NCBI RefSeq assembly: GCF_003991155.1
Contig: NZ_CP031293.1
DNA: 64,000 bases
Strand: one strand, 5' to 3'
Source of the DNA: Escherichia coli
Lineage (GTDB): Bacteria; Pseudomonadota; Gammaproteobacteria; Enterobacterales; Enterobacteriaceae
A model generated the notes under the pieces. The model had not been told where the DNA came from, ran no database searches, and saw only the letters and a program-made list of their open reading frames with translations. Positions 12,086 to 50,518 of the stretch are shown in pieces; position 1 is the stretch's first letter; each line of letters opens with the position of its first letter. A program made the translations under genes and the position numbers.

Positions 12086-13342
12086 TTAGCGAACGATAAT
12101 CCCTAACAAAATACCCAGTGCGCCAAAGTCAGCATCACTGAAGGTGGTGTTAGCAAAACCAATATCACCCAGCACCGGCAATAAGAATACTGGCAGGAAG
12201 GTAATAAGCAAGCCCTGAGCGAAGGCACCCAAAATCGCACCACGACGTCCACCCGTTGCATTACCGAATACCCCTGCAGCTGCACCTACGAAGAAGTGCG
12301 GCACCACACCAGGAATAATCACGATCATGTTCAGCAGATACAACGTGAACATACCGATTAAACCTGCAGCAAAGCTACTCAGGAAACCAACCAGTACAGC
12401 GTTAGGTGCGTAAGGGAAGACGACCGGGCAATCGAGAGCAGGTCTGGCATTCGGAACCAGCTTGTCTGAAATACCTTTGAATGCCGGGACAATCTCCGCA
12501 ATCACCATGCGCACACCCTGCAGAATGATGTACACGCCAGCTGCGAAGGTAATGGATTGCATGATAGAGAACATGAACCAGTTTTTACCACCGCTAAGCT
12601 CTTTCACCGCATCTGCACCCGCAAACAGGCACGTCACCAGGAAAATTATGCTCATGGTAAAAGAGATAGCAACCGGCGTGTCGCGCAAGAACAGCAGACT
12701 TTTCGGCACATTCATGTCTTCAGTCGAGTGCTCTTTATTACCAAACTTGCTGCCGATGAAACCGGCCAATACATAAGATAATGTTGAGAAGTGGCCGATG
12801 GCAACGTCATCAGAACCGGTCACTTTCTTCATGTACGGATGCGCAATAGCCGGGAAAAAGACCATTGCCACGCCAACAACCAAAGAGCCAACGGCTATAA
12901 GCGTAACGCCGGTCATGCCTGCTGTTGCCAGAATTACCGCTACCATCATCGACATAAACAACGTGTGATGACCGGTCAGGAAGATAAATTTCCACGGTGT
13001 GAAACGGGCAATCATAATGTTGATAACCATCGCAAAGAACATAATCATCGCCATTTCTTTCCCGAAGCTTTTCTGCGCTACGGAAACAATGGCTTCATTG
13101 TTCGGCACGACACCCTGAATACCAAAGGCATGCTGGAAAATGTTTGCGAAGTCACCCAGTGACGACACAACTAAACCCGCCCCTGCGCCTAAAATCACAA
13201 ACCCCATAATGGTCTTGACGGTACCTTTAATGCATTCGGTTACCGGTTTTTTCTGTGCAATCAGGCCAATCAGGGCGATTAAACCGACCAGCACCGCGGG
13301 TTCGGAAAGTACATCGCTCATCAAAAAACGAAAGAAATCCAT
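12086..13342 (-). CDS. PTS ascorbate-family (SgaT/UlaA-type) transporter subunit IIC
   Basis: 418-aa polytopic membrane protein with SgaT/UlaA-type sequence character; co-oriented with IIB and IIA genes. Confidence 0.85.
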   Translation of the reverse strand: MDFFRFLMSDVLSEPAVLVGLIALIGLIAQKKPVTECIKGTVKTIMGFVILGAGAGLVVSSLGDFANIFQHAFGIQGVVPNNEAIVSVAQKSFGKEMAMIMFFAMVINIMIARFTPWKFIFLTGHHTLFMSMMVAVILATAGMTGVTLIAVGSLVVGVAMVFFPAIAHPYMKKVTGSDDVAIGHFSTLSYVLAGFIGSKFGNKEHSTEDMNVPKSLLFLRDTPVAISFTMSIIFLVTCLFAGADAVKELSGGKNWFMFSIMQSITFAAGVYIILQGVRMVIAEIVPAFKGISDKLVPNARPALDCPVVFPYAPNAVLVGFLSSFAAGLIGMFTLYLLNMIVIIPGVVPHFFVGAAAGVFGNATGGRRGAILGAFAQGLLITFLPVFLLPVLGDIGFANTTFSDADFGALGILLGIIVR

Positions 13343-13657: not shown

Positions 13658-14101
13658 TTAATAGCGCGCAATAACAGACAAAATGTCCTGCGTCGTTTTG
13701 GCCGTCAAAATAGCCTGTATGTCTTTTTCGTTATCGAATAACTTGGCGAGTTGAGAAATCGCTTCAATGTGGCTGGTACTGTCGGTTGCAGCCAGCACAA
13801 TCAGTAATTTCACTGGATCGTTTTCATCGGCATCAAAATTCACACCTGAAGGGATCAGGGTCAGTGCTAATGACAGCTTGTTAGCCCCCTCTTCCGGGCG
13901 CGCATGAGGCATCGCAATACCAGGGCCAACCACATAGTACGGACCGATAGTGTCGTGCGAGTGATAGATCGCATCAACATAACGCGGTTCGATAGAACCG
14001 TTTTCAATCAACGGTCGGCATGAAATCGCCACGGCTTCCCGCCAGTCTTTGACCTGTTCCACGACCTGAACGACCTCTGTATTTAATAGATTTTTTAACA
14101 T
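13658..14101 (-). CDS. PTS subunit IIA (mannitol/fructose-type IIA fold, as in UlaC/SgaA)
   Basis: 147 aa with the conserved histidine region (GIAMPHAR); GGGAG ribosome-binding site; first gene of the IIA-IIB-IIC operon. Confidence 0.8.
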   Translation of the reverse strand: MLKNLLNTEVVQVVEQVKDWREAVAISCRPLIENGSIEPRYVDAIYHSHDTIGPYYVVGPGIAMPHARPEEGANKLSLALTLIPSGVNFDADENDPVKLLIVLAATDSTSHIEAISQLAKLFDNEKDIQAILTAKTTQDILSVIARY

Positions 14102-14371: not shown

Positions 14372-15403
14372 ATGGAAAAAACACGTAAGCGCCGTGGTAC
14401 CGGACGGGTGACGCTGCAGGAGGTCGCTAACTTTGCAGGTGTCGGAACCATGACCGTTTCCCGCGCGCTGAGAACACCGGAACAGGTTTCTGACAAGCTG
14501 AGGGAAAAGATAGAACAGGCCGTAGAAGAGTTGGGTTATATTCCCAACAGAACTGCTGGCGCCCTTGCATCTGGTCACAGTCATACAGTCGCCGTACTGG
14601 TTCCTTCCCTGACAGATAAAGCCAGCTCCCGCTTTATGCAGTCATTACAGCAGGTGCTTAATAAAAATGAATTCCAGCTACTGCTTGGGTGTCATGAGTA
14701 TAATCAGCTCAAAGAAGCTGAAATTCTGATGACGCTTCTTCAAGGCAACCCGGCGGCGTTAGTTATTTTTGGTTCTCAGTTGGCTGATAAAACTCACCAG
14801 ATACTCGAGAAAACAAATATACCTACCATTAACGTTATCGGTTCCCCTTTCAGTCCGGCTCAAATTACCATCGAAACAGCATTTTTTGAAGCATCACATA
14901 AACTGACCGAACATCTGCTGGAGCAGGGTTATAAGAATATCGGATTTATCGGTGCGCATATGGACAACCGCCTGCAACGTCAGCAACTGAACGGCTGGCA
15001 TAAAGCAATGCTGAGCCATTACCAGAACACTGATCTTGTTATCACCATGCCGGATGCCGCAAGTCTGCAATTGGGGCGTTACGCATTAAACGAGATATTA
15101 CTGCGACAACCAGAGCTGGATGCTGTGATTTGCAGCCACGAAGAGATTGCGCTGGGTATAATGTTTGAGTGCCAGCGGCGTTTGTTAAAAATCCCTGGAA
15201 ATATCGCTGTAGCTTGTCTTGACGGTTCAGACAATTGCGATCAAACACACCCAACTTTGACATCCATCCGTATTGACTACAAAAAAATGGGGATAGAGAC
15301 AGGTAAGTTACTGATTGGACTATTGAATAATAATCATGATGAATCAGAAGAGTCGCGTATCGTGCAATTCAACTACCAGATAGAATTACGTCAGAGTACA
15401 TGA
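14372..15403 (+). CDS. LacI-family transcriptional regulator, divergent from the PTS operon
   Basis: N-terminal helix-turn-helix (VTLQEVANFAGVGTMTVSRALR) plus periplasmic-binding-protein-like sugar-binding domain. The true start may be the GTG at about 14410. Confidence 0.8.
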   Translation: MEKTRKRRGTGRVTLQEVANFAGVGTMTVSRALRTPEQVSDKLREKIEQAVEELGYIPNRTAGALASGHSHTVAVLVPSLTDKASSRFMQSLQQVLNKNEFQLLLGCHEYNQLKEAEILMTLLQGNPAALVIFGSQLADKTHQILEKTNIPTINVIGSPFSPAQITIETAFFEASHKLTEHLLEQGYKNIGFIGAHMDNRLQRQQLNGWHKAMLSHYQNTDLVITMPDAASLQLGRYALNEILLRQPELDAVICSHEEIALGIMFECQRRLLKIPGNIAVACLDGSDNCDQTHPTLTSIRIDYKKMGIETGKLLIGLLNNNHDESEESRIVQFNYQIELRQST

Positions 15404-16145
15404 GCCTAAAAGAGCGCTATTACAAAGTTAGCTATTGTGGTAGGGATAGCCGTTTCCGGCTATTCCCCGCGCAGTTCCGGATGTATGCTGCTAACGCATC
15501 CATTCCTACTTCAGGTATTTGGCGTAGAAGCGGATGCTAAAAACTTGTCGCAAAACCGCAATATCAGCCTGCAGTATCGCTCTCCAGATTATCCATTCCT
15601 ATATTGATGACAACGACAGGTAAGACTGTGACTCACCAAACTTGGATGTTTTTCTGAGCTTAAAGCTCGTTGCGTGAATAAGGCGAGAGTCAGCGAATCT
15701 CATTGAGGCCCGCAGCACCGGCTGCAATAAGGATATAGAGCAGCAATCTACCGTCAACGTCAAAAACACGGAAGCCTTGCAAACGGGATGCGTTCATATA
15801 AACAACATGGAGCAGCAACAGTACGATGCCTGTTGTTGCTCAGTCAGGACCTTTTCTGCCATGCGCGAGCCAGCGTCACGATTGATAAATAATGTTCGCA
15901 ACTGATTACTTTACTGCAACAGACGTGGCTGGTAATAAGCGCTGGCGGACAATGCAGGGTGAAAGGCTGTTTTCGGGTTGTCCGGCCTGATACATCAGAG
16001 CAATACGTTGCGTTAAAAACGGCTGTTCAGTCTCTGATGCCACGGGGTATTGCAACAATCATCCGGTGATGGACGGGAGAAATATCGACTCTTCCGTTAG
16101 TTTTTACAGACTGATAAAGTTTTGCCAGCTGAATCTTTATACGGA

Positions 16146-16781
16146 ATGCTCTTCAGTATGCATATACGAATTGACTATCTGGCGGATAAAAACTGCTTTA
16201 CAGAACTGAATGAATCTCCACGCCTTCGCCGGCAGTGGCAGGATGTTCTGGAGGAGTGCCGGCAGACAGAGGCCGGGCCAGAAGAACGGCTGCGTATTGC
16301 TCTGCTGAATGTGGATTACGTCACCAGTTTTGAACTGCCTTTTCGCTTGTTGCTTACTCGTACACCACAACTGATTGCCGCGCTGCGTGAAGAATGGGAC
16401 ATCAGCCAGAAAAATGTGGTGTTCAACGATAAACGCTTTGGCTGCGTGTACAACCTGAAGGCCAGCCTTTCGGGTGGGCCGGATACATTCCGGTATCATC
16501 TGTCTCACCGTATTCGGCGGGTGGTTGCGAATGAAAACACATCATCGCCATACCAACTGATTGCCCGGGAAGTGAAAGCGCCCCGTCAACGGCTGAAGTA
16601 TGCGCTGGAGACAGGATTGCAGGTGAGCGCACTGGACGGCCTGTTCTGGTTCGGCAGCCAGCGCATTGCGGCAGATATCCTGAGGCTGAGAAAGTACGGG
16701 ATGCGGATTGCGACGGCTTCTGTGGACGTGTATGACAACATAACCGGAACAACTCGTCATATCCCTGTATATTACTCCTGA
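16146..16781 (+). CDS. Hypothetical protein upstream of cdiB, possible C-terminal DNA-binding region
   Basis: The ORF-track start at 16122 is a TTG; the first ATG is at 16146, with weak ribosome-binding-site support. I recognise no family; a possible helix-turn-helix-like stretch is at the C-terminus (GSQRIAADILRLRKYGMRIAT). Confidence 0.4.
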   Translation: MLFSMHIRIDYLADKNCFTELNESPRLRRQWQDVLEECRQTEAGPEERLRIALLNVDYVTSFELPFRLLLTRTPQLIAALREEWDISQKNVVFNDKRFGCVYNLKASLSGGPDTFRYHLSHRIRRVVANENTSSPYQLIAREVKAPRQRLKYALETGLQVSALDGLFWFGSQRIAADILRLRKYGMRIATASVDVYDNITGTTRHIPVYYS

Positions 16782-17002
16782 CGCAAAATAGTCTGTGGGG
16801 GCCGGAGCATGACCGGTAACCGGAACAGGGTTTTGCCCTCGTCACAGCCAAAAATACGTCCTTTATCACATTTCTTCGATTTTTCCTGATATTTTACCGG
16901 GTTACTGTTCAAAAATGCTTCTCTTCTGATGTAAATTTCTTTACTGACACTTTTTGACATGAATTTACACTGGCATCACACAGGCCAGAATACGGGGAGA
17001 AC

Positions 17003-18775
17003 ATGCAGCACCGGCAGAAAAACATTCTGACGAAAACGTCCCTTTTATCCCGTGCGTTGTCTGTCCCCTGTTGTGATATGTTCCGGCGCGGCTCTCCGTG
17101 GATATGCTATCTCTCCCTCTCCGTTTTTTCTGGTTGTTTCATCCCCGCATTTTCGTCTCCGGCAGCCATGCTGTCTCCGGGTGACCGCAGTGCAATTCAG
17201 CAGCAACAGCAGCAGTTGCTGGATGAAAACCAGCGTCAGCGTGATGCGCTGGAGCGCAGTGCGCCGCTGACCATCACGCCGTCTCCGGAAACGTCTGCCG
17301 GTACTGAAGGTCCCTGCTTTACGGTGTCAAGCATTGTTGTCAGTGGGGCCACCCGACTGACGTCTGCAGAAACCGACAGACTGGTGGCACCGTGGGTGAA
17401 TCAGTGTCTGAATATCACGGGGCTGACCGCGGTCACGGATGCCGTGACGGACGGCTATATACGCCGGGGATATATCACCAGCCGGGCCTTTCTGACAGAG
17501 CAGGACCTTTCAGGGGGCGTACTGCACATAACGGTCATGGAAGGCAGGCTGCAGCAAATCCGGGCGGAAGGCGCTGACCTTCCTGCCCGCACCCTGAAGA
17601 TGGTTTTCCCGGGAATGGAGGGGAAGGTTCTGAACCTGCGGGATATTGAGCAGGGGATGGAGCAGATTAATCGTCTGCGTACGGAGCCGGTACAGATTGA
17701 AATATCGCCCGGTGACCGTGAGGGATGGTCGGTGGTGACACTGACGGCATTGCCGGAATGGCCTGTCACAGGGAGCGTGGGCATCGACAACAGCGGGCAG
17801 AAGAATACCGGTACGGGGCAGTTAAATGGTGTCCTTTCCTTTAATAATCCTCTGGGGCTGGCTGACAACTGGTTTGTCAGCGGGGGACGGAGCAGTGACT
17901 TTTCGGTGTCACATGATGCGAGGAATTTTGCCGCCGGTGTCAGTCTGCCGTATGGCTATACCCTGGTGGATTACACGTATTCATGGAGTGACTACCTCAG
18001 CACCATTGATAACCGGGGCTGGCGGTGGCGTTCCACGGGAGACCTGCAGACTCACCGGCTGGGACTGTCGCATGTCCTGTTCCGTAACGGGGACATGAAG
18101 ACAGCACTGACCGGAGGTCTGCAGCACCGCATTATTCACAATTATCTGGATGATGTTCTGCTTCAGGGCAGCAGCCGTAAACTCACTTCATTTTCTGTCG
18201 GGCTGAATCACACACACAAGTTTCTGGGTGGTGTCGGAACACTGAATCCGGTATTCACACGGGGGATGCCCTGGTTCGGCGCAGAAAGCGACCACGGGAA
18301 AAGGGGAGACCTGCCCGTAAATCAGTTCCGGAAATGGTCGGTGAGTGCCAGTTTTCAGCGCCCCGTCACGGACAGGGTGTGGTGGCTGACCAGCGCTTAT
18401 GCCCAGTGGTCACCGGACCGTCTTCATGGTGTGGAACAACTGAGCCTCGGGGGTGAGAGTTCAGTGCGTGGCTTTAAGGAGCAGTATATCTCCGGTAATA
18501 ACGGCGGTTATCTGCGGAATGAGCTGTCCTGGTCTCTGTTCTCCCTGCCATATGTGGGGACAGTCCGTGCAGTGACTGCACTGGACGGCGGCTGGCTGCA
18601 CTCTGACAGAGATGACCCGTACTCGTCCGGCACGCTGTGGGGTGCTGCTGCCGGGCTCAGCACCACCAGTGGTCATGTTTCCGGTTCGTTCACTGCCGGA
18701 CTGCCTCTGGTTTACCCGGACTGGCTTGCCCCTGACCATCTCACGGTTTACTGGCGCGTTGCCGTCGCGTTTTAA
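17003..18775 (+). CDS. cdiB: Two-partner secretion outer-membrane transporter (TpsB; ShlB/FhaC/HecB family)
   Basis: 590 aa with POTRA-containing TpsB character, GGGGAG ribosome-binding site, immediately upstream of a 3288-aa TpsA-type exoprotein with a VENN motif. Confidence 0.9.
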   Translation: MQHRQKNILTKTSLLSRALSVPCCDMFRRGSPWICYLSLSVFSGCFIPAFSSPAAMLSPGDRSAIQQQQQQLLDENQRQRDALERSAPLTITPSPETSAGTEGPCFTVSSIVVSGATRLTSAETDRLVAPWVNQCLNITGLTAVTDAVTDGYIRRGYITSRAFLTEQDLSGGVLHITVMEGRLQQIRAEGADLPARTLKMVFPGMEGKVLNLRDIEQGMEQINRLRTEPVQIEISPGDREGWSVVTLTALPEWPVTGSVGIDNSGQKNTGTGQLNGVLSFNNPLGLADNWFVSGGRSSDFSVSHDARNFAAGVSLPYGYTLVDYTYSWSDYLSTIDNRGWRWRSTGDLQTHRLGLSHVLFRNGDMKTALTGGLQHRIIHNYLDDVLLQGSSRKLTSFSVGLNHTHKFLGGVGTLNPVFTRGMPWFGAESDHGKRGDLPVNQFRKWSVSASFQRPVTDRVWWLTSAYAQWSPDRLHGVEQLSLGGESSVRGFKEQYISGNNGGYLRNELSWSLFSLPYVGTVRAVTALDGGWLHSDRDDPYSSGTLWGAAAGLSTTSGHVSGSFTAGLPLVYPDWLAPDHLTVYWRVAVAF

Positions 18776-18787
18776 GGGATTATTACC

Positions 18788-21700
18788 ATGCATCAGCCTC
18801 CCGTTCGCTTCACTTACCGCCTGCTGAGTTACCTTATCAGTACGATTATCGCCGGGCAGCCGTTGTTACCGGCTGTGGGGGCCGTCATCACCCCACAAAA
18901 CGGGGCTGGAATGGATAAAGCGGCAAATGGTGTGCCGGTCGTGAACATTGCCACGCCGAACGGGGCCGGGATTTCGCATAACCGGTTTACGGATTACAAC
19001 GTCGGGAAGGAAGGGCTGATTCTCAATAATGCCACCGGTAAGCTTAATCCGACGCAGCTTGGTGGACTGATACAGAATAACCCGAACCTGAAAGCGGGCG
19101 GGGAAGCGAAGGGTATCATCAACGAAGTGACCGGCGGTAAGCGCTCACTGCTGCAGGGCTATACGGAAGTGGCCGGCAAAGCGGCGAATGTGATGGTTGC
19201 CAACCCGTATGGTATCACCTGTGACGGCTGTGGTTTTATCAACACGCCGCACGCGACGCTCACCACAGGCAAACCTGTGATGAATGCCGACGGCAGCCTG
19301 CAGGCGCTGGAGGTGACTGAAGGCAGTATCACCATCAATGGCGCGGGCCTGGACGGCACCCGGAGCGATGCCGTATCCATTATTGCCCGTGCAACGGAAG
19401 TGAATGCCGCGCTTCATGCGAAGGATTTAACTGTCACTGCAGGCGCTAACCGGATAACTGCAGATGGTCGCGTCAGTGCCCTGAAGGGCGAAGGTGATGT
19501 GCCGAAAGTTGCCGTTGATACCGGCGCGCTCGGTGGAATGTACGCCAGGCGTATTCATCTGACCTCCACTGAAAGTGGTGTCGGGGTTAATCTGGGTAAC
19601 CTTTATGCCCGCGAGGGCGATATCACCCTGGATGCCAGCGGCAGACTGACTGTCAACAACAGTCTCGCCACGGGGGCCGTCACTGCAAAAGGTCAGGGCG
19701 TCACCTTAACCGGCGACCATAAAGCGGGAGGTAACCTGAGCGTCAGCAGCCGGAGCGATATCGTTCTCAGCAATGGAACGCTTAACAGCGACAAGGACCT
19801 CAGCCTGACCGCCGGCGGCAGAATCACTCAACAGAATGAAAAACTGACTGCCGGCCGGGATGTAACGCTTGCCGCGAAAAACATCACACAGGATACCGCC
19901 AGCCAGATTAACGCGGCCCGCGATATCGTGACTGTCGCCAGTGACACGCTGACAACACAGGGACAGATAACCGCCGGGCAGAATCTCACGGCCAGCGCCA
20001 CCACGCTGACACAGGACGGAATATTGCTGGCGAAAGGTCATGCGGGACTCGATGCCGGCACGCTGAATAACAGTGGTGCTGTTCAGGGGGCTTCCCTGAC
20101 GCTCGGCAGTACAACGCTCAGCAACAGTGGCTCCCTGCTCAGTGGCGGTCCCCTGACCGTGAATACCCGCGACTTTACCCAGAGCGGCCGCACTGGCGCG
20201 AAGGGCAAAGTGGATATCACGGCCAGTGGGAAACTGACCAGTACAGGTTCGCTGGTGAGCGATGATGTACTGGTGCTGAAGGCGCAGGATGTGACACAGA
20301 ACGGTGTGCTGTCCGGCGGCAAAGGGCTGACGGTCAGTGCGCAGGCGCTGAGCTCCGGTAAAAAATCGGTCACCCACAGCGATGCTGCGATGACGCTGAA
20401 TGTGACAACAGTGGCGCTGGACGGGGAAAACAGTGCCGGTGACACCCTCCGGGTTCAGGCAGACAAACTGAGTACCGCAGCGGGCGCACAGCTTCAGAGC
20501 GGTAAAAATCTCAGCATCAACGCCAGAGATGCACGTCTTGCAGGTACGCAGGCAGCACAACAGACCATGGCGGTGAACGCCAGTGAAAAGCTCACCCACA
20601 GCGGGAAAAGCAGCGCCCCGTCGCTCAGCCTCAGTGCGCCGGAACTGACCAGCAGCGGTGTGCTTGTTGGTTCCGCCCTGAATACACAGTCACAGACCCT
20701 GACCAACAGTGGTCTGTTGCAGGGGGAGGCCTCACTCACCGTTAACACACAGAGGCTTGATAATCAGCAGAACGGCACGCTGTACAGTGCTGCAGACCTG
20801 ACGCTGGATATACCGGACATCCGCAACAGCGGGCTTATCACCGGTGATAATGGTTTAACGTTAAACACTGCCTCCCTCAGCAATCCGGGAAAAATCATCG
20901 CTGACACGCTGAACGTCAGGGCGACCACGCTGGATGGTGATGGTCTGTTGCAGGGCGCCGGTGCACTGGCGCTTGCAGGCGACACCCTCTCACAGGGCCG
21001 TAACGGACGCTGGCTGACGGCGGGCGACCTCTCCCTCCGGGGTAAAACACTGCATACCGCAGGGACCACGCAGGGACAGAATCTCACCGTGCAGGCGGAC
21101 AGATGGGCGAACAGTGGTTCCGTGCTGGCAACCGGTAACCTTACTGCTTCGGCAACCGGTCAGTTGACCAGTACCGGCGATATCATGAGCCAGGGTGACA
21201 CCACGCTGAAAGCAGCCACCATGGACAACCGGGGCAGTCTGCTTTCGGCCGGCACGCTCTCCCTTGATGGAAACTCACTGGATAACAGCGGCACTGTCCA
21301 GGGTAACCATGTCACGATTCGCCAGAACAGTGTCACCAACAGTGGCACGCTCACCGGGATAGCCGCGCTGACGCTTGCCGCCCGTATGGCATCCCCTCAA
21401 CCTGCGCTGATGAATAACGGAGGTTCATTGCTGACCAGCGGCGATCTGACAATCACCGCAGGCAGTATTACCAGTTCCGGACACTGGCAGGGCAAACGGG
21501 TGCTGATCACCGCAGACAGTCTGGCAAACAGCGGGGCGATCCAGGCGGCTGACAGCCTGACTGCACGTCTGACGGGTGAGCTCGTCAGCACAGCGGGCAG
21601 CAAAGTCACCTCGAACGGTGAAATGGCGCTCAGTGCACTGAATTTAAGCAACAGCGGACAATGGATTGCAAAAAATCTGACCCTGAAGGCGAACTCACTG

Positions 21701-24700
21701 ACCAGTGCGGGTGACATCACCGGTGTGGATACTCTCACGCTCACGGTGAATCAGACGCTGAACAATCAGGCGAACGGAAAACTGCTCAGTGCAGGTGTGC
21801 TGACGCTGAAGGCAGACAGTGTCACAAACGACGGGCAATTACAGGGAAATGCCACCACCATCACGGCAGGACAACTCACAAACGGCGGGCATCTGCAGGG
21901 CGAAACGCTGACGCTGGCCGCCTCCGGTGGCGTGAACAACCGTTCCGGTGGTGTTCTGATGAGCCGGAATGCACTGAATGTCAGTACTGCGACCCTGAGT
22001 AACCAGGGCACGATACAGGGTGGTGGCGGGGTTTCCCTGAACGCCACAGACCGTCTGCAGAACGACGGCAAAATCCTTTCCGGCAGTAACCTCACGCTGA
22101 CGGCGCAGTTGCTGGCGAACACCGGCAGCGGACTGGTACAGGCTGCCACCCTGCTGCTGGATGTGGTGAATACTGTCAACGGCGGACGCGTACTTGCCAC
22201 CGGCAGTGCCGACGTTAAAGGAACCACGCTGAATAATACCGGTACGCTTCAGGGGGCGGACCTGCTGGTGAATTACCACACATTCAGCAACAGCGGTACC
22301 CTGCTGGGAACCTCCGGGCTTGGCGTCAAGGGCAGTTCACTGCTGCAAAATGGTACAGGGCGGCTGTACAGTGCAGGCAACCTGCTGCTTGACGCTCAGG
22401 ACTTCAGTGGTCAGGGGCAGGTGGTGGCCACCGGTGATGTCACACTGAAACTGATTGCTGCCCTCACGAATCATGGTACCCTGGCCGCAGGGAAAACCCT
22501 TTCCGTCACGTCGCAAAATGCCATCACCAACGGCGGTGTGATGCAGGGTGATGCCATGGTGCTCGGTGCCGGAGAGGCATTCACCAACAATGGAATGCTG
22601 ACTGCCGGTAAAGGCAACAGTGTTTTCAGCGCACAGCGTCTTTTCCTTAACGCACCGGGTTCACTTCAGGCCGGTGGCGATGTGAGTCTGAACAGCCGGA
22701 GTGATATCACCATCAGTGGTTTTACCGGCACGGCAGGCCGTCTGACAATGAATGTGGCCGGTACCCTGCTGAACAGTGCGCTGATTTATGCGGGGAATAA
22801 CCTGAAGCTGTTTACAGACCGTCTGCATAACCAGCATGGTGATATCCTGGCCGGCAACAGTCTGTGGGTACAGAAGGATGCTTCCGGCGGTGCAAACACA
22901 GAGATTATCAATACCTCCGGGAATATTGAGACGCATCAGGGCGATATTGTTGTAAGGACCGGGCATCTTCTGAACCAGCGGGAGGGATTTTCTGCCACAA
23001 CAACAACCCGGACTAACCCCTCATCCATTCAGGGAATGGGAAATGCTCTGGTTGATATTCCCCTTTCCCTTCTTCCTGACGGCAGCTATGGCTATTTCAC
23101 CCGTGAAGTTGAAAATCAGCACGGTACGCCCTGCAACGGGCACGGGGCATGCAATATCACAATGGATACGCTTTATTATTACGCTCCGTTTGCTGACAGT
23201 GCCACACAGCGCTTTCTCAGCAGCCAGAACATCACAACAGTAACCGGTGCTGATAATCCGGCAGGCCGCATTGCGTCAGGGCGTAATCTTTCTGCTGAGG
23301 CTGAACGACTGGAAAACCGGGCGTCATTTATCCTGGCGAATGGGGATATCGCACTTTCGGGCAGAGAGTTAAGCAATCAGAGCTGGCAGACGGGGACAGA
23401 GAATGAATATCTGGTATACCGCTACGACCCGAAAACGTTTTACGGTAGCTATGCCACAGGCTCTCTGGATAAACTGCCCCTGCTGTCACCGGAATTTGAA
23501 AACAATACCATCAGATTTTCACTGGATGGCCGGGAAAAAGATTACACGCCCGGTAAGACGTATTATTCCGTTATTCAGGCGGGCGGGGATGTTAAGACCC
23601 GTTTTACCAGCAGTATCAATAACGGAACAACCACTGCACATGCAGGTAGTGTCAGTCCGGTGGTCTCTGCACCGGTACTGAATACGTTAAGTCAGCAGAC
23701 CGGCGGAGACAGTCTGACACAGACAGCGCTGCAGCAGTATGAGCCGGTGGTGGTTGGCTCTCCGCAATGGCACGATGAACTGGCAGGTGCCCTGAAAAAT
23801 ATTGCCGGAGGTTCGCCACTGACCGGTCAGACCGGTATCAGTGATGACTGGCCACTGCCTTCCGGCAACAATGGATACCTGGTTCCGTCCACGGACCCGG
23901 ACAGTCCGTATCTGATTACGGTGAACCCGAAACTGGATGGTCTCGGACAGGTGGACAGCCATTTGTTTGCCGGACTGTATGAGCTTCTTGGAGCGAAACC
24001 GGGTCAGGCGCCACGTGAAACGGCTCCGTCGTATACCGATGAAAAACAGTTTCTGGGCTCATCGTATTTTCTTGACCGCCTCGGGCTGAAACCGGAAAAA
24101 GATTATCGTTTCCTGGGGGATGCGGTCTTTGATACCCGGTATGTCAGTAACGCGGTGCTGAGCCGGACGGGTTCACGTTATCTCAACGGACTGGGTTCAG
24201 ACACGGAACAGATGCGGTATCTGATGGATAACGCGGCCAGACAACAGAAAGGACTGGGATTAGAGTTTGGTGTGGCGCTGACAGCTGAACAGATTGCTCA
24301 GCTTGACGGCAGCATACTGTGGTGGGAGTCAGCCACCATCAACGGACAGACAGTCATGGTCCCGAAACTGTATCTGTCGCCGGAAGATATCACCCTGCAT
24401 AACGGCAGCGTTATCAGCGGGAACAACGTGCAACTTGCGGGCGGCAATATCACCAACAGCGGCGGCAGCATCAACGCACAGAACGACCTCTCGCTCGACA
24501 GTTCCGGCTATATCGACAACCTGAATGCGGGGCTGATAAGCGCGGGCGGTAGCCTGGACCTGAGCGCCATCGGGGATATCAGCAATATCAGCTCAGTCAT
24601 CAGCGGTAAAACCGTACAACTGGAAAGCGTGAGTGGCAACATCAGCAATATCACCCGGCGTCAGCAATGGAATGCGGGCAGTGACAGCCAATATGGTGGT

Positions 24701-27700
24701 GTGCATCTCAGCGGTACGGACACCGGTCCGGTTGCGACCATTAAAGGCACTGATTCACTTTCGCTGGATGCAGGGAAAAACATTGATATTACCGGGGCAA
24801 CGGTCTCGTCCGGTGGAGACCTTGGAATGTCTGCGGGTAATGATATCAACATTGCCGCAAACCTGATAAGTGGGAGCAAAAGTCAGTCCGGTTTCTGGCA
24901 CACTGATGACAACAGTTCATCATCCACCACCTCACAGGGCAGCAGCATCAGCGCCGGCGGTAACCTGGCGATGGCTGCAGGCCATAATCTGGATGTCACG
25001 GCATCCTCTGTTTCTGCCGGGCACAGCGCCCTGCTTTCTGCAGGTAACGACCTGAGTCTGAATGCAGTCAGGGAAAGCAAAAACAGTCGCAACGGCAGGT
25101 CAGAAAGTCATGAAAGCCACGCAGCTGTGTCCACGGTGACAGCGGGCGATAACTTCCTCCTTGTTGCCGGTCGTGATATTGCCAGTCAGGCTGCCGGTAT
25201 GGCTGCGGAAAATAACGTGGTCATCCGGGGCGGACGTGATGTGAACCTGGTGGCAGAGTCTGCCGGCGCAGGCGACAGCTATACGTCGAAGAAAAAGAAA
25301 GAGATTAACGAGACAGTCCGTCAGCAGGGAACGGAAATCGCCAGCGGTGGTGACACCACCGTCAACGCAGGACGGGATATCACCGCTGTTGCGTCATCCG
25401 TTACCGCAACCGGCAATATCAGCGTGAATGCCGGTCGTGATGTTGCCCTGACCACGGCGACAGAAAGTGACTATCACTATCTGGAAACGAAGAAAAAAAG
25501 CGGAGGTTTTCTCAGTAAGAAAACCACCCGCACCATCAGTGAGGACAGTGCCACCCGTGAAGCAGGCTCCCTGCTGTCGGGGAACCGCGTGACCGTTAAC
25601 GCCGGTGATAACCTGACGGTAGAGGGTTCGGATGTGGTGGCTGACCGGGATGTGTCACTGGCGGCGGGTAACCATGTTGATGTTCTTGCTGCCACCAGTA
25701 CAGATACGTCCTGGCGCTTTAAGGAAACGAAGAAATCCGGTCTGATGGGTACCGGCGGTATTGGTTTCACCATTGGCAGCAGTAAGACAACGCACGACCG
25801 GCGCGAGGCCGGGACAACGCAGAGTCAGAGTGCCAGCACCATCGGCTCCACTGCCGGTAATGTCAGTATTACCGCGGGCAAACAGGCTCATATCAGCGGT
25901 TCGGATGTGATTGCGAACCGGGATATCAGCATTACCGGTGACAGTGTGGTGGTTGACCCGGGGCATGACCGTCGTACTGTGGACGAAAAATTTGAGCAGA
26001 AGAAAAGCGGGCTGACGGTTGCCCTTTCCGGCACGGTGGGCAGTGCCATCAATAATGCGGTTACCAGTGCACAGGAGACGAAGGAGAGCAGTGACAGCCG
26101 TCTGAAAGCCCTGCAGGCCACAAAGACAGCGCTGTCTGGTGTGCAGGCCGGACAGGCTGCGACAATGGCCTCCGCAACCGGTGACCCGAATGCGATGGGA
26201 GTCAGCCTGTCGCTCACCACCCAGAAATCGAAATCACAACAACATTCTGAAAGTAACACAGTATCCGGCAGTACGCTGAATGCCGGGAATAATCTGTCTG
26301 TTGTCGCAACCGGTAAAAACAGGGGCGATAACCGCGGAGATATTGTGATTGCCGGAAGCCAGCTTAAGGCCGGTGGTAACACAAGCCTGGATGCCGCGAA
26401 TGATATTCTGTTGAGTGGCGCCGCAAACACACAAAAAACAACGGGCAGGAACAGCAGCAGTGGCGGTGGCGTGGGTGTCAGTATCGGTGCCGGTGGTAAC
26501 GGTGCCGGTATCAGCGTCTTTGCCGGCGTTAATGCGGCAAAAGGCAGCGAGAAAGGTAACGGTACTGAGTGGACTGAAACCACAACAGACAGCGGTAAAA
26601 CCGTCACCATCAACAGTGGTCGGGATACGGTACTGAACGGTGCTCAGGTCAACGGCAACAGGATTATCGCCGATGTGGGCCACGACCTGCTGATAAGCAG
26701 CCAGCAGGACACCAGTAAGTACGACAGTAAACAGACCAGCGTGGCTGCCGGCGGCAGTTTTACCTTTGGCTCCATGACCGGCTCAGGTTACATCGCTGCC
26801 TCCCGGGATAAGATGAAGAGCCGCTTTGACTCCGTTGCTGAACAAACCGGAATGTTTGCCGGTGATGGTGGCTTCGACATTACAGTGGGCAGACATACCC
26901 AACTGGATGGTGCGGTGATTGCCTCCACTGCCACACCGGATAAAAACCACCTGGATACCGGAACGCTGGGGTTCAGTGACCTTCACAACGAAGCGGATTA
27001 TAAAGTCAGTCACAGTGGAATCAGTCTGAGCGGTGGTGGCAGCTTCGGGGATAAATTTCAGGGTAACATGCCGGGTGGCATGATATCCGCCGGAGGTCAC
27101 AGCGGACATGCGGAAGGAACGACTCAGGCCGCAGTGGCAGAAGGCACTATCACCATCCGGGACAGGGACAATCAGAAGCAGAATCTGGCGAACCTGAGCC
27201 GTGACCCTGCGCACGCTAATGACAGTATCAGCCCGATATTTGACAAGGAGAAAGAGCAGAGGCGTCTGCAGACAGTGGGGCTTATCAGTGACATAGGCAG
27301 TCAGGTGGCGGATATTGCGCGTACACAGGGAGAACTGAATGCGTTGAAGGCCGCGAAGGAAGCAACCGGCGAAACACTTCCTGCTAATGCAACAGAGAAA
27401 CAACGTCAGGAATATCTTGCGAAACTGCGTGACACGCAGGCTTACAGGAATGAAATGGCGAAGTATGGTACCGGCAGTGAAATTCAGCGGGGTATCCAGG
27501 CCGCGACAGCCGCGCTTCAGGGACTGGCGGGTGGTAATTTAGCGGGTGCTCTGGCCGGAGCTTCTGCACCGGAACTGGCGCATCTGCTGAAATCAACAGA
27601 AAAAGACCCGGCAGTAAACGCCATTGCTCACGCCATTCTGGGCGGTACAGTAGCGGCAATGCAGGGTAATAATGTTGCTGCTGGTGCAGCAGGCGCAGCA

Positions 27701-28654
27701 ACGGGAGAGCTGGCAGCCAGAGCGATTGCCGGAATGCTGTATCCGGGAGTGAAGCAGTCAGACCTCAGTGAAGAGCAGAAGCAGACGATAAGTACGCTGG
27801 CAACTGTGTCAGCAGGGCTGGCCGGCGGTCTAACCGGAAACAGCACCGCATCAGCAGCAGTGGGAGCACAGAGCGGGAAGAATGCTGTTGAGAATAACTA
27901 CCTGAGCGTGTCTGAAAAGACAGAACTTGAGATAGCAAAACAGACGCTTAAAAACAGTAAAGATCCGGCAGAGCGTGAAAAGGCACAGCAGAAATATGAT
28001 GCATTGCTTGAAAAAGATATTGCCAGTGATAAGGAGGTTATTGCTGCCTGTAGTAATGGTAATGCGAGTAGTTCAGCGTGTGCCAGCGCAAGACTGAAAG
28101 TTATTGCGTCGAAAGAAGGGTACGAAGATGGCCCTTATAACTCGAAATACAGCCAGCAATACGCTGATGCGTATGGTCAGATAGTCAATCTCCTCGATAT
28201 CACCAGTGTTGATGCACAGAATCAGCAGCAGGTGAAAAACGCCATGATTAACTATTTCATGGTCACCAAAGGGGTGGATCGTCAGACCGCAGAAAGCTAC
28301 ACCGAAACAACGCAGGGCTTGGAGATCATTGCGGCTTCGGTAACGCCTCTTATAGGGCAAGCTGCATCAAATAAATTAAGCTACCTTGGTATTGGGAAAA
28401 AGATATCCTTTGATGGTGATTTTTATACTGTAGATGGAATGAAATTCAGCAAAAGTTATTATGAGAAATTATGGGAGCAAGGCAGACCTGCGCCATTCGT
28501 GCAAGCAAGAGAAGTGTTGAATAGCAATCCAAAAATTGAGCCGGATCCTAGAGGCGCACCTGGCTACTTAAGATATGAAGGTGCAGGTCTTGAAATGATC
28601 TATAACCCGAAAACGGGACAAGTTGGTCATATTCAACCAGTCAAGGTTAAATAA
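18788..28654 (+). CDS. cdiA: Contact-dependent growth inhibition exoprotein CdiA (3288 aa)
   Basis: N-terminal two-partner-secretion transport domain ([27 protein letters not shown]), long filamentous-haemagglutinin-type repeat tract, glycine-rich pre-toxin region and the VENN motif ([15 protein letters not shown]) about 255 aa from the C-terminus. Confidence 0.9.
27887..28654 (+). other. CdiA-CT toxin region (VENN to stop); enzymatic class unassigned
   Basis: VENN codons at 27887..27898, in frame with cdiA. The final domain (...[33 protein letters not shown]...GHIQPVKVK) matches no toxin I can name and does not end in GYGI. Confidence 0.7.
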
Positions 28655-47523: not shown

Positions 47524-48101
47524 ATATCAATACGGTTCTGACGAGCCGCTTACCCTTTAAAAAGGTATAGGTATATAACAGTAATATCTGATCGTAACGG
47601 ACGGACGCTGGAATTAACCGATGACCGCAGCACAGAGAGTAGGGGATGCGGACGGTCAAAGATCGCGGCGTTGGATTTTATAAATCTGTCTCCAGTAGTA
47701 GATGAACTGAATACAAAGTTGCCAGAGAGTGGTCTGTCAGGCAGGGAATCAGAAACTGGATATTATTGACTGGTACATTGTGTCGGGCTGTGTACGTTCT
47801 CCCCGGACAGACAGTCTCAGTTCGTAGAATCTATAAATTACTGCTACTGATGCTGCCGGGGAAAGGCGTAACGAAAAAACAGCCTCCGTTACCGGACAGC
47901 AAGGAGGCTGAATGGAGTTTACAGGATTTGCTTTTTTATAATGTCTGGCCATGCAGTAAAACCGGACAGGTTTTATTATCATGTGAGGTATTCTGACATA
48001 AAATGCTGGATTTTTATTTTGTGACGAATGCTGCAAAATTGAATCTGCACTCTGATGTAACTTTTATCTGTTTCAGTGAAGCATGCCCACAAATTGAGTT
48101 A

Positions 48102-48335
48102 TTAAGTTGTGGAAGAACAGTTTTGTCCCGCCTGCATCTCTCCTTTCAAAAACCAGTATGTTGCCATGCCTCGCCTTAATGGAGAGCGCTGAACCACACC
48201 TTCTTTTTCCAGTAATAACAGGTAATAGCGTGCCTGATAATCCGTTACCGCCAGCGCCTCCGCAATTTCTGCGGTTTTCCCTCCATTATGCCTGTTCAGA
48301 AATTCCAGTATTTCATTCTTCATATATTCACTCAT
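48102..48335 (-). CDS. papI: P-fimbrial phase-variation regulator PapI
   Basis: 77-aa protein [66 protein letters not shown]... matches PapI as I recall it; divergent from papB across the regulatory region. Confidence 0.9.
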
Positions 48336-48528
48336 CTCACTGTAACAAAGTTTCTTCGAATAATAAAAATCATGCTCTCTGTTATCAACGGAAAGGTATT
48401 TTTATTCTCTATGTTTGCTTTATTTGTGAAATTTAGTGAATTTGCTTTTTGTTGGCTTTATTTGATGTGTATCACATTTTGTGTGTTATTTTTCTGTGAA
48501 AAGAAAGTCCGTAAAAATGCATTTAGAC

Positions 48529-48634
48529 GATCTTTTATGCTGTAAATTCAATTCACCATGATGTTTTTATCTGAGTGTATTCTTGTTGTTGGTGTTTTAT
48601 TCTGGTTTGATTTTGTTTTGTGGGTTAAAAGATC
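48529..48634. promoter_or_regulatory. pap phase-variation control region: two Dam GATC sites 102 bp apart (Lrp/PapI switch)
   Basis: GATC at 48529..48532 (ACGATCTTTTA) and 48631..48634 (AAGATCGTTTAAA), centre-to-centre 102 bp, in the 404-bp papI-papB intergenic region. A CRP-like TGTG...CACA element at about 48461..48485 is only tentative. Confidence 0.7.
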
Positions 48635-48739
48635 GTTTAAATCAATATTTACAACATAAAAAACTAAATTTAACTTATTGCGTGAAGAGTATTTCAGGGC
48701 CGGAAGCATATATCCAGGGGCCCGACAGAAGGGGGAAAC

Positions 48740-49054
48740 ATGGCGCATCATGAAGTCATCAGTCGGTCAGGAAATGCGTTTTTGCTGAATATACGCGAGA
48801 GCGTACTGTTGCCCGGCTCTATGTCTGAAATGCATTTTTTTTTACTGATAGGTATTTCTTCTATTCACAGTGACAGGGTCATTCTGGCTATGAAGGACTA
48901 TCTGGTAGGTGGGCACTCCCGTAAGGAGGTCTGCGAGAAATACCAGATGAATAATGGGTATTTCAGTACAACACTGGGGAGACTTATACGGCTGAATGCT
49001 CTTGCAGCAAGGCTTGCACCTTATTATACAGATGAGTCGTCGGCATTTGACTAA
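48740..49054 (+). CDS. papB: P-fimbrial transcriptional regulator PapB
   Basis: 104-aa protein MAHHEVISRSGNAFLLNIRESVLLPGSMSEMHFFLLIGISSIHSDRVILAMKDYLVGGHSRKEVCEKYQMNNGYF... matches PapB-family regulators as I recall them. Confidence 0.9.
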   Translation: MAHHEVISRSGNAFLLNIRESVLLPGSMSEMHFFLLIGISSIHSDRVILAMKDYLVGGHSRKEVCEKYQMNNGYFSTTLGRLIRLNALAARLAPYYTDESSAFD

Positions 49055-49261
49055 ATTATGGCATTCCGGAGTTTCTGGAAGATAAAAAAAGAAGTCCTTA
49101 TCAGAAAGCAGACAGGTTATATCAGTATTCTGTCGATAAATAACCTGCCCTGAAAATACGAGAATATTATTTGTATTGATCTGGTTATTAAAGGTAATCG
49201 GGTCATTTTAAATTGCCAGATATCTCTGGTGTGTTCAGTAATGAAAAAGAGGTTGTTATTT

Positions 49262-49810
49262 ATGATTAAGTCGGTTATTGCCGGTGCGGTAGCTATGGCA
49301 GTGGTGTCTTTTGGTGTAAATGCTGCTCCAACTACTCCACAGGGGCAGGGTAGAGTAACCTTTAACGGAACTGTTGTTGATGCTCCATGCAGCATTTCTC
49401 AGAAATCAGCTGATCAGTCTATTGATTTTGGACAGCTTTCAAAAAGCTTCCTTGAGGCAGGAGGTACATCCAAGCCAATGGATTTAGATATTGAGTTAGT
49501 AAATTGCGATATTACAGCTTTTAAACAAGGTCAACCAGCTAAAAACGGTAAGGTTCAATTATCTTTTACTGGGCCACAAGTAACGGGGCAGACTGAAGAA
49601 TTAGCAACTAACGGCGGTACGGGCACAGCTATTGTAGTTCAGGCTGCAGGCAAAAACGTTTCTTTCGATGGGACTGCAGGTGACGCTTATCCCCTGAAAG
49701 ATGGTGATAATGTTCTTCATTATACAGCTCTTGTGAAAAAAGCGAATGGCGGTACTGTTTCTGAAGGTGCTTTTTCTGCAGTTGCAACCTTTAATTTAAG
49801 TTACCAGTAA
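49262..49810 (+). CDS. papA: P-fimbrial major pilin PapA
   Basis: Start placed at ATG 49262 (MIKSVIAGAVAMAVVSFGVNA signal peptide) after an AAGAGG ribosome-binding site; pilin with conserved Cys pair and C-terminal ...ATFNLSYQ beta-strand motif. Confidence 0.85.
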   Translation: MIKSVIAGAVAMAVVSFGVNAAPTTPQGQGRVTFNGTVVDAPCSISQKSADQSIDFGQLSKSFLEAGGTSKPMDLDIELVNCDITAFKQGQPAKNGKVQLSFTGPQVTGQTEELATNGGTGTAIVVQAAGKNVSFDGTAGDAYPLKDGDNVLHYTALVKKANGGTVSEGAFSAVATFNLSYQ

Positions 49811-49872
49811 TTCATCTGATTTTTACAGGGTGAGGCAAGACCCACCCTGTGTCTGACAACGACATTTAAGGT

Positions 49873-50460
49873 ATGAAGAATTTTTGTGTTCTGTTTGTGA
49901 TGTATTTCTGGAGTACATTACTTCATGCTGTATCTTCAGAGCCATTTCCTCCGCCCGGCATGTCCCTTCCTGAATACTGGGGAGAAGAACACGTATGGTG
50001 GGATGGCAGGGCTACTTTTCATGGTGAGGTTGTCAGACCTGCCTGTACTCTGGCGATGGAAGACGCCTGGCAGATTATTGATATGGGGGAAACCCCGGTA
50101 CGGGATTTACAGAATGGTTTCTCCGGACCTGAAAGAAAATTCAGCCTCCGGCTCAGGAATTGTGAATTTAACAGTCAGGGTGGGAACCTTTTCTCTGATT
50201 CCCGGATAAGGGTGACTTTCGATGGCGTCCGGGGTGAAACGCCGGATAAGTTTAATTTATCCGGTCAGGCAAAAGGAATTAATCTGCAGATAGCTGATGC
50301 CAGGGGAAATATTGCCCGGGCAGGGAAAGTAATGCCTGCAATACCATTGACGGGTAATGAAGAAGCGCTGGATTACACCCTCAGAATTGTGAGAAACGGA
50401 AAAAAACTTGAAGCCGGAAATTATTTTGCTGTGCTGGGATTCCGGGTCGATTATGAGTGA
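49873..50460 (+). CDS. papH: P-fimbrial minor subunit PapH (pilus terminator/anchor)
   Basis: 195 aa, position after papA and before the usher gene; pilin-like C-terminus (...LGFRVDYE). Confidence 0.85.
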   Translation: MKNFCVLFVMYFWSTLLHAVSSEPFPPPGMSLPEYWGEEHVWWDGRATFHGEVVRPACTLAMEDAWQIIDMGETPVRDLQNGFSGPERKFSLRLRNCEFNSQGGNLFSDSRIRVTFDGVRGETPDKFNLSGQAKGINLQIADARGNIARAGKVMPAIPLTGNEEALDYTLRIVRNGKKLEAGNYFAVLGFRVDYE

Positions 50461-50518
50461 GTCACTCCGGTGAGATGTCCGGTTATTTATCTTTTTTGTG
50501 AATCTGGTGATGCGTGGA

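What the first reader, a model, noticed from the sequence alone, without database searches (positions are those of the whole stretch)
48336..48739. Intact pap phase-variation switch: two GATC sites exactly 102 bp apart between papI and papB
The spacing and flanking sequences (ACGATCTTTTA and AAGATCGTTTAAA) match the Dam/Lrp/PapI epigenetic switch architecture known for P fimbriae, so this operon is probably phase-variable. A candidate CRP site lies between the GATC sites and papI, at about 48461..48485.
Basis: partly seen in the sequence, partly recalled or inferred. Interest (0 to 1): 0.35.

Follow-up and report, generated by a model that had tools for sequence, protein, structure and literature searches.

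The report
Textbook pap fimbrial phase-variation switch, intact
This is the well-known DNA-methylation on/off switch of the E. coli P-fimbria (pap) operon, present here in complete and unbroken form; it is real but ordinary, found in about a quarter of complete E. coli genomes.

Summary
The 404-bp papI/papB intergenic region (48336-48739) holds exactly two GATC sites, at 48529 and 48631, 102 bp apart. Each lies in the published 17-bp pap box TAAAAGATCGTYTAAAT, in inverted orientation: distal Y=C, proximal Y=T. A CRP-like site, TTTGA-N6-TCACA, lies at 48461-48476. Its centre is 215.5 bp from the predicted papBA start and 115.5 bp from the predicted papI start.

papI, papB, papA-papG (class III adhesin) and papX are all intact. 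The window matches E. coli FDAARGOS_1284 with 2 mismatches over the 61 kb compared. The switch region occurs in 1330 of 5426 complete E. coli genomes.

I sampled 12 pap alleles. Eleven keep the 102-bp spacing, and every length change falls outside the inter-GATC interval. sfa and an Edwardsiella hoshinae fimbrial locus keep the same spacing.

So this is the canonical Dam/Lrp/PapI/PapB/CRP switch: already known, low interest. Phase variation itself is inferred from sequence identity, not measured.

One thing noticed in passing is less ordinary. The pap structural genes are almost free of GATC: 2 observed against about 16 expected from synonymous-codon shuffles. cdiBA shows the same depletion. 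sfa and the Edwardsiella operon do not.

The parts
48102..48335 (-). papI, 77 aa, FaeA/PapI-family co-regulator that redirects Lrp to the distal sites
   Evidence: Intact ORF. Pfam FaeA E 3.3e-31. Identical to RefSeq WP_000006211.1, annotated PapI in FDAARGOS_1284, F11 and CU42ET-1. It differs from the sample consensus at A45E, M47V, K67M and S72N; each variant residue occurs in another annotated PapI-family protein in the sample, SfaC of strain A33 or PapI of EC958.
48360..48388 (-). Predicted papI promoter: -35 TTGATA (48388..48383), 17-bp spacer, -10 TATTAT (48365..48360). Predicted start near 48353.
   Evidence: The only sigma-70-like hit in 48000-49300, 10 of 12 matches. The start is inferred. 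The CRP centre then lies at -115.5.
48393..48464 (.). T-rich repeat region between the papI promoter and the CRP site; inferred PapB binding site 1
   Evidence: 20-nt direct repeat at 48407-48426 / 48445-48464. Other pap alleles carry 2 or 3 extra copies of the 9-bp unit CTGTGTTTG here. [quoted passage not shown] Binding was not tested.
48461..48476 (.). cAMP-CRP (CAP) site core TTTGA-N6-TCACA, centre 48468.5
   Evidence: 15 of 16 specified core positions. TCACA is invariant in the 7-sequence alignment, which includes sfa. The site was found in all 12 sampled pap alleles and in sfa. It lies 215.5 bp from the predicted papBA start, matching 'CAP from -215' (Weyand 2001, cited).
48521..48537 (-). 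Distal GATC box (GATC-dist / GATC-I / GATC1028; Lrp site 5). GATC at 48529-48532.
   Evidence: Exact match to the published TAAAAGATCGTCTAAAT (PMC4417163).
48626..48642 (+). Proximal GATC box (GATC-prox / GATC-II / GATC1130; Lrp site 2). GATC at 48631-48634.
   Evidence: Exact match to the published TAAAAGATCGTTTAAAT (PMC4417163). It lies 102 bp from the distal GATC.
48648..48676 (+). Predicted papBA promoter: -35 TTTACA (48648-48653), 17-bp spacer, -10 TAACTT (48671-48676). Predicted start near 48684.
   Evidence: Read from the sequence. The hexamers are invariant across the pap alleles and differ at one base in sfa. The -10 is weak (3 of 6), so the consensus scan missed it; this fits an activator-dependent promoter. 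The start is inferred.
48740..49054 (+). papB, 104 aa, local regulator that activates papI and autoregulates
   Evidence: Intact ORF. Pfam PapB E 1e-36. Same RefSeq protein, WP_000930062.1, as in CFT073.
49262..57176 (+). Controlled structural operon papA, H, C, D, J, K, E, F, G (class III PapG adhesin)
   Evidence: Annotation of the near-identical FDAARGOS_1284 shows no pseudogene flags. Each gene has a single terminal stop in the window. PapG_N and PapG_C Pfam hits.
57439..57990 (+). papX, regulator gene at the operon end
   Evidence: Annotated HTH-type regulator PapX in FDAARGOS_1284; ORF present.

Best explanation
This is the canonical pap (P-fimbria) epigenetic phase-variation switch, complete and undamaged.

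Shown here: two GATC boxes in inverted orientation 102 bp apart, a CRP site, divergent intact papI and papB, and an intact papA-G operon.

Inferred from the established model (Blyn 1990; Nou 1995; Weyand 2001; Hernday 2003, as summarised in the reviews read):
- OFF state: Lrp occupies the three promoter-proximal sites around GATC 48631. It blocks RNA polymerase at the papBA promoter (about 48648-48676) and shields that GATC from Dam. The distal GATC 48529 is methylated, which disfavours Lrp/PapI binding there.
- Switching: after replication the distal site is hemimethylated, and PapI raises Lrp affinity for the distal sites. Lrp then protects GATC 48529, and Dam methylates GATC 48631, which prevents Lrp from returning.
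- ON state: Lrp at the distal sites, with cAMP-CRP at 48461-48476 (-215.5), activates papBA. PapB then activates papI, which locks in the ON state.
- Result: a heritable, reversible ON/OFF mixture of fimbriated and bare cells, further gated by carbon source (CRP) and by H-NS on this 32% GC region.
For: - Exact GATC positions and spacing.
- Exact matches to both published 17-mers, with the correct Y base at each site and inverted orientation (PMC4417163).
- 27-nt inverted repeat.
- The CRP core is conserved and lies 215.5 and 115.5 bp from the predicted papBA and papI starts ('-215' in the Weyand 2001 title).
- Pfam FaeA/PapI and PapB hits.
- The papI-papB region is 100% identical to FDAARGOS_1284, annotated papI / PapB-family. 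The 404-bp intergenic region is 95.0% identical to CFT073.
- 11 of 12 sampled pap alleles keep the 102-bp spacing, while 1-, 18- and 27-bp indels all fall outside the inter-GATC interval. sfa (135 to 237) and Edwardsiella hoshinae (12427 to 12529) also show 102 bp.
- The names GATC1028 and GATC1130 in the literature differ by 102 (PMC13076061).
- The operon is intact.
- The mechanism is as described in PMC11316696, PMC9820224, PMC10073500 and PMC13337833.
Against: - Nothing in the sequence argues against it.
- There are no methylation, Lrp-binding or expression data for this allele.
- Transcription starts and Lrp/PapB site boundaries are inferred, not mapped.
- This PapI variant (E45, V47, M67, N72) and this spacer allele have not, to my knowledge, been individually tested, so switching rates may differ from the model alleles.
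- dam, lrp and crp lie outside the window; they are assumed present as E. coli core genes.
Confidence: 0.9

Rival explanations
1. The switch sequence is intact, but this allele is effectively locked or strongly biased, mostly OFF. Possible causes are its PapI variant, its spacer polymorphisms, or cross-regulation by a second pap-like locus in the same genome. It would then not give meaningful ON/OFF heterogeneity.
For: PapI differs from the sample consensus at four positions. The inter-GATC spacer differs from CFT073 at many positions. The closest genome has a second pap-like place (places_in_record = 2). Natural pap loci do decay: EC931 has the proximal GATC changed to TATC plus an IS1 in papB, and EC958, TUM13770 and KY1497 have a frameshifted or truncated papB.
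Against: None of those defects is present here. Both boxes, the CRP site and the promoter hexamers are identical to the other intact alleles. Each PapI substitution occurs in another annotated PapI-family protein in the sample. PapB is the same protein as in CFT073. The identical PapI occurs in the urinary isolate F11.
Confidence: 0.08
2. The two GATC sites are a chance pair in an AT-rich intergenic region and have no regulatory meaning.
For: About one GATC is expected in 404 bp from composition alone, so two is not unusual.
Against: Both sit in exact 17-bp published boxes in inverted orientation, where 0.23 near-matches are expected in the whole window. The spacing is invariant across alleles that differ by indels elsewhere, and across sfa and another genus. 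In the species-wide pattern scan the 16 hits outside Enterobacterales had spans of 95-124 bp and none had the 110-bp span. The only enterobacterial hit had exactly that span and sits next to a PapB homologue.
Confidence: 0.01

Closest known systems
pap regulatory region of uropathogenic E. coli (model alleles from the Low and Uhlin laboratories; CFT073, F11, ABU 83972)
   Same: Same gene order and same 404-bp intergenic length as CFT073. GATCs at identical offsets (194 and 296 from papI), identical 17-mer boxes, identical CRP core, identical PapB protein. The intergenic region is 95.0% identical to CFT073; the papI-papB region is 99.3% identical to F11 and 99.4% to ABU 83972.
   Different: Only allelic differences: point changes mainly in the spacer between the boxes and near the PapB site 1 region, four PapI substitutions relative to the sample consensus, and a class III PapG adhesin rather than the class II of CFT073. 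Reviews quote 416 bp for the intergenic region. The 12-bp difference equals the distance from the annotated papI ATG to its in-frame Met5, so it is probably a matter of start-codon choice (my inference).
sfa/foc (S and F1C fimbriae) Dam/Lrp switch with SfaC/SfaB
   Same: Divergent PapI-like and PapB-like regulators, two ACGATC boxes in inverted orientation 102 bp apart, conserved TCACA CRP half-site, and near-identical promoter region.
   Different: Only the region around the proximal box and promoter aligns by BLAST (88% over 51 bp). sfa has an extra GATC 8 bp upstream of the proximal one, a longer SfaC, and different structural genes.
Edwardsiella hoshinae PapB-linked fimbrial locus (NZ_BAUC01000007.1)
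   Same: ACGATCTTTT ... AAAAGATCGT boxes with exactly the same 102-bp GATC spacing, next to a PapB-family ORF and a chaperone-usher operon.
   Different: Different genus and unrelated spacer sequence. No PapI-like ORF of 50 aa or more was seen on the other side within the DNA held. Its structural genes are not depleted of GATC.

Membership tests
Pap-type Dam/Lrp/PapI fimbrial phase-variation switch | Divergently transcribed PapI-family and PapB-family regulator genes flanking an AT-rich intergenic region of about 400 bp | tested here: met
   papI 48102-48335 (-) with Pfam FaeA E 3e-31; papB 48740-49054 (+) with Pfam PapB E 1e-36; 404 bp between them at 31.7% GC.
Pap-type Dam/Lrp/PapI fimbrial phase-variation switch | Two GATC sites 102 bp apart (GATC1028 / GATC1130) | tested here: met
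   48529 and 48631, the only GATCs in the region. Same spacing in 11 of 12 pap alleles, in sfa and in E. hoshinae. Site names from PMC13076061.
Pap-type Dam/Lrp/PapI fimbrial phase-variation switch | Each GATC lies in the conserved box TAAAAGATCGTYTAAAT (contains the ACGATC PapI/Lrp element), the two boxes inverted, distal Y=C and proximal Y=T | tested here: met
   Exact matches at 48521-48537 (-) and 48626-48642 (+). Published sequence in PMC4417163.
Pap-type Dam/Lrp/PapI fimbrial phase-variation switch | cAMP-CRP site between papI and the distal GATC, centred about -215.5 from the papBA start | tested here: met
   TTTGATGTGTATCACA at 48461-48476, conserved. It lies 215.5 bp from the start predicted from the TTTACA-17-TAACTT promoter. 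The start itself is predicted, not mapped.
Pap-type Dam/Lrp/PapI fimbrial phase-variation switch | Six Lrp binding sites, 1-3 overlapping the papBA promoter and 4-6 distal; PapI-dependent shift of Lrp | not testable with these tools
   Only the two GATC-bearing sites (2 and 5) can be placed by sequence. Binding requires footprinting or EMSA.
Pap-type Dam/Lrp/PapI fimbrial phase-variation switch | Mutually exclusive methylation of the two GATCs in ON and OFF cells, with heritable ON/OFF expression | not testable with these tools
   Needs methylation-aware sequencing or MboI/DpnI assays, plus single-cell reporters.
Pap-type Dam/Lrp/PapI fimbrial phase-variation switch | Intact downstream chaperone-usher fimbrial operon under the switch | tested here: met
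   papA, H, C, D, J, K, E, F, G each have a single terminal stop. They are annotated without pseudogene flags in the near-identical genome.
Pap-type Dam/Lrp/PapI fimbrial phase-variation switch | Host supplies Dam, Lrp, CRP and H-NS | not tested
   These genes lie outside the 64-kb window. The window matches an E. coli chromosome with 2 mismatches over the 61 kb compared, and these are core E. coli genes (established knowledge).

The most novel reading that the evidence does not exclude
The near-total absence of GATC from the pap structural genes may be selected rather than inherited, and functionally tied to the switch. The window shows a 7.4-kb GATC-free stretch and 2 sites against about 16 expected from synonymous-codon shuffles; CFT073 shows the same. 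A GATC desert could isolate the two regulatory GATCs from Dam loading, SeqA binding or MutH nicking at neighbouring sites, and so tune switching rates. The evidence does not exclude this. It is weakened because sfa and the Edwardsiella operon, which carry the same type of switch, are not depleted, and because cdiBA, which has no such switch, is depleted as well.
Probability: 0.06. Interest if true: 0.5.

Novelty: already known. Interest (0 to 1): 0.08.

Why it matters
It confirms that this island carries a complete P-fimbrial operon (class III adhesin) that is expected to be phase-variable. That is useful for annotating the strain's virulence potential and for interpreting methylome data, because these two GATCs should appear as partly unmethylated sites. 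It adds nothing new to the understanding of the switch. The small survey does show that natural length polymorphism avoids the inter-GATC interval, and that some lineages carry visibly broken switches, so 'intact' is a meaningful call.

Tried and rejected
- **Promoter scan:** the consensus scan found the papI promoter but not papBA, because its -10 (TAACTT) matches only 3 of 6. I placed papBA by eye and by conservation instead.
- **CRP motif:** its count alone is not significant in the window (6 against 2.3), so I relied on conservation and position.
- **Near-match at 14081-14097:** this 17-mer near-match, with a CRP-like site at 14161, lies between PTS and LacI-family genes and has no GATC. 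It is not a second switch.
- **Species-wide pattern scan** (ACGATCTTTT-N75-105-AAAAGATCGT): 17 hits. Sixteen were scattered across unrelated phyla with spans other than 110 bp and are taken as chance. Only Edwardsiella hoshinae is a real relative. The scan holds one genome per species, and no E. coli contig was among the hits.
- **Primary papers:** Nou 1995 and Hernday 2002 are not held in the library, so the exact Lrp site 1-6 coordinates could not be transferred.
- **Literature on GATC depletion in pap:** the search found nothing relevant.
- **Rfam and tRNA scans:** nothing in the switch region.
- **Spurious ORFs:** those inside the intergenic region (48288-48545 +, 48548-48751 -, 48583-48753 +) are AT-rich, unannotated in RefSeq and dismissed.
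- **GATC desert as part of the switch:** I considered this and largely rejected it after the sfa and Edwardsiella controls.

Full report
**1. Observation**

The window holds a minus-strand 77-aa ORF at 48102-48335 and a plus-strand 104-aa ORF at 48740-49054. Pfam assigns them to the FaeA/PapI family (E 3.3e-31) and the PapB family (E 1e-36).

The 404 bp between them (48336-48739, 31.7% GC against 48.3% for the window) contains exactly two GATC sites, at 48529 and 48631, 102 bp apart.

Horton et al. 2015 (PMC4417163) give the pap boxes as TAAAAGATCGTYTAAAT. Sixteen of 17 bp are shared, with Y=C at the distal site and Y=T at the proximal site, in opposite orientations. Both are matched exactly: 48521-48537 on the minus strand with C, and 48626-48642 on the plus strand with T. 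Allowing 3 mismatches, only 0.23 matches are expected in the whole window. The boxes form the core of a 27-nt inverted repeat with 23 of 27 positions complementary.

The CRP candidate is TTTGATGTGTATCACA at 48461-48476, which matches 15 of the 16 specified core positions.

**2. What it is**

The papI-papB stretch is 100% identical to E. coli FDAARGOS_1284. It is 99.3-99.4% identical to ABU 83972, F11 and others, where the genes are annotated papI and PapB-family regulator.

Compared without gaps, window positions 1-61054 differ from FDAARGOS_1284 at only two positions, both inside papG.

The annotation of that genome shows a complete operon with no pseudogene flags: papI, papB, papA, papH, papC, papD, papJ, papK, papE, papF, papG-III and papX. 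Every structural gene in the window has a single terminal stop codon.

Upstream lie an IS66 element, the pgt genes, a cdiBAI locus and other island genes. This is a typical pathogenicity-island context. The switch region is found in 1330 of 5426 complete E. coli genomes.

**3. Anatomy relative to the known switch**

The only consensus-like promoter in 48000-49300 is on the papI strand: TTGATA, 17 bp, TATTAT at 48388..48360. It predicts a start near 48353.

On the papB side, TTTACA (48648-48653), 17 bp, TAACTT (48671-48676) predicts a start near 48684. This -10 is weak, as expected for a promoter that depends on activators. Both hexamers are invariant among the pap alleles and differ at one base in sfa.

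The CRP centre at 48468.5 then lies at -215.5 from papBA and -115.5 from papI. The first figure matches the title of Weyand et al. [quoted passage not shown] The -115.5 figure is from my own recollection of the older literature.

Reviews quote a 416-bp intergenic region (PMC9820224). Counting from the in-frame Met5 of papI gives exactly 416 bp. I therefore read the 12-bp difference as a start-codon convention (inference).

**4. Conservation of the spacing**

I fetched 11 further pap alleles taken across the identity range, which makes 12 with the window. Eleven have both GATCs at a spacing of exactly 102 bp. The intergenic lengths are 404, 405, 422 and 431 bp, and all length differences lie outside the inter-GATC interval.

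The 18- and 27-bp insertions are 2 and 3 extra copies of the 9-bp unit CTGTGTTTG in the presumed PapB site 1 area.

One allele, EC931, has lost the proximal GATC (TATC) and also carries an IS1 in papB. EC958 has a frameshifted papB, and in TUM13770 and KY1497 only a shorter PapB-family ORF starting about 150 bp downstream is annotated. 'Intact' is therefore a real distinction.

The sfa locus of strain A33 also has 102 bp between its boxes, plus an extra GATC 8 bp upstream of the proximal one.

A pattern scan of one genome per species (ACGATCTTTT-N75-105-AAAAGATCGT) gave 17 hits. Sixteen were scattered over unrelated phyla with spans from 95 to 124 bp, and none had the 110-bp span. I take these as chance. 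The only enterobacterial hit, Edwardsiella hoshinae, has the 110-bp span, with GATCs at 12427 and 12529. It lies next to a PapB homologue and a chaperone-usher operon.

**5. Mechanism**

The sequence shows all the cis elements and both local regulators. The mechanism itself is taken from the established model as summarised in PMC11316696, PMC9820224, PMC10073500, PMC13337833 and PMC13076061.

- **OFF state.** Lrp on sites 1-3 covers the papBA promoter and shields the proximal GATC. The distal GATC is methylated.
- **Switching.** After replication, PapI helps Lrp move to sites 4-6. Lrp then shields the distal GATC, and Dam methylates the proximal one.
- **ON state.** Lrp at the distal sites, with cAMP-CRP, activates papBA. 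PapB activates papI, which closes a positive feedback loop.
- **Other inputs.** H-NS, CpxR, RimJ and the PapR sRNA modulate the switch.

None of these steps was or could be tested here.

This PapI allele (WP_000006211.1) differs from the consensus of the sample at A45E, M47V, K67M and S72N. Each variant residue is found in SfaC of strain A33 or in the EC958 PapI, and the same protein occurs in strain F11. I therefore see no reason to expect loss of function, although switching rates could differ between alleles.

**6. Comparison and novelty**

This is a member of the canonical pap family, not merely something like it. All sequence-level defining features are met. The biochemical and epigenetic ones cannot be tested with these tools. 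The finding is already known, and interest is low.

**7. Noticed in passing**

The pap structural genes are nearly devoid of GATC. There are no sites from 49416 to 56852 (7,437 bp). papA-papG holds 2 sites, against 23-30 expected from composition and 15.9 +/- 2.9 expected from synonymous-codon shuffles. None of 300 shuffles was as low.

CATG and GTAC are at expectation in the same genes. CFT073 pap shows the same depletion (4 against 17.5). cdiB and cdiA in the window are depleted as well (8 against 43.0). Eleven other genes of the window are normal (47 against 45.9).

The sfa genes (5 against 6.5) and the Edwardsiella operon (18 against 20.6) are not depleted. The desert is therefore not a general companion of this type of switch. 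It more likely reflects the history of the pap and cdi DNA. I found no paper on it.

Noticed in passing
window 49416-56852 (papA 3' part to papG); also L026 11426-19364 (CFT073 pap): Strong, GATC-specific avoidance in the pap structural genes. There is a 7,437-bp stretch with no GATC. papA-G holds 2 sites against 15.9 +/- 2.9 expected from synonymous-codon shuffles (0 of 300 shuffles as low). CATG and GTAC are normal. CFT073 pap shows the same (4 against 17.5). Control genes in the window are normal (47 against 45.9). sfa and an Edwardsiella operon with the same switch are not depleted. No literature was found.
   Followed up: partly
window 17003-28654 (cdiB, cdiA): The contact-dependent inhibition genes are also strongly depleted of GATC: 8 against 43.0 +/- 5.0 from synonymous shuffles, with GATC-free gaps at 15239-21443 and 21538-27962. 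Overall the window has 134 GATC against about 250 expected.
   Followed up: partly
L003 about 774-791 and L004 about 774-800, aligned to the junction at window 48408/48409: Copy-number polymorphism of the 9-bp unit CTGTGTTTG (+2 and +3 copies) in the presumed PapB site 1 region of some pap alleles. It lengthens the distance from the papI promoter to the CRP site by 18 or 27 bp and leaves the GATC spacing untouched. The effect on papI activation is unknown.
   Followed up: partly
L006 (EC931), L007 (EC958), L028 (TUM13770), L033 (KY1497): Naturally broken switches in other strains. EC931 has the proximal GATC mutated to TATC and an IS1 in papB. EC958 has a frameshifted papB. In TUM13770 and KY1497 only a shorter PapB-family ORF starting about 150 bp downstream of the usual papB start is annotated, although both GATC sites are kept.
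   Followed up: no
L014 12029-12534 (Edwardsiella hoshinae NZ_BAUC01000007.1): A PapB-family gene and chaperone-usher operon preceded by two ACGATC boxes with exactly the 102-bp GATC spacing, in a different genus. No PapI-like ORF of 50 aa or more was seen in the DNA held beyond the boxes.
   Followed up: partly
window 47773-47949 (-): Rfam hit to AS-pc02 (RF02876, 'antisense to pHK01_099'; 53.2 bits against a gathering score of 40), between the end of the IS66 transposase gene and papI. It may be linked to the adjacent IS66 element; this was not examined.
   Followed up: no
window 49177-49205 (+): A 13-pair hairpin followed by a T-run in the papB-papA intercistronic region, containing the GATC at 49178. 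It lies in the stretch where the papBA transcript is known to be processed by RNase E (mentioned in PMC4546395).
   Followed up: no
window 56485 and 56652 (papG): The only two differences between the window and E. coli FDAARGOS_1284 over the 61 kb compared both fall inside the class III papG adhesin gene.
   Followed up: no
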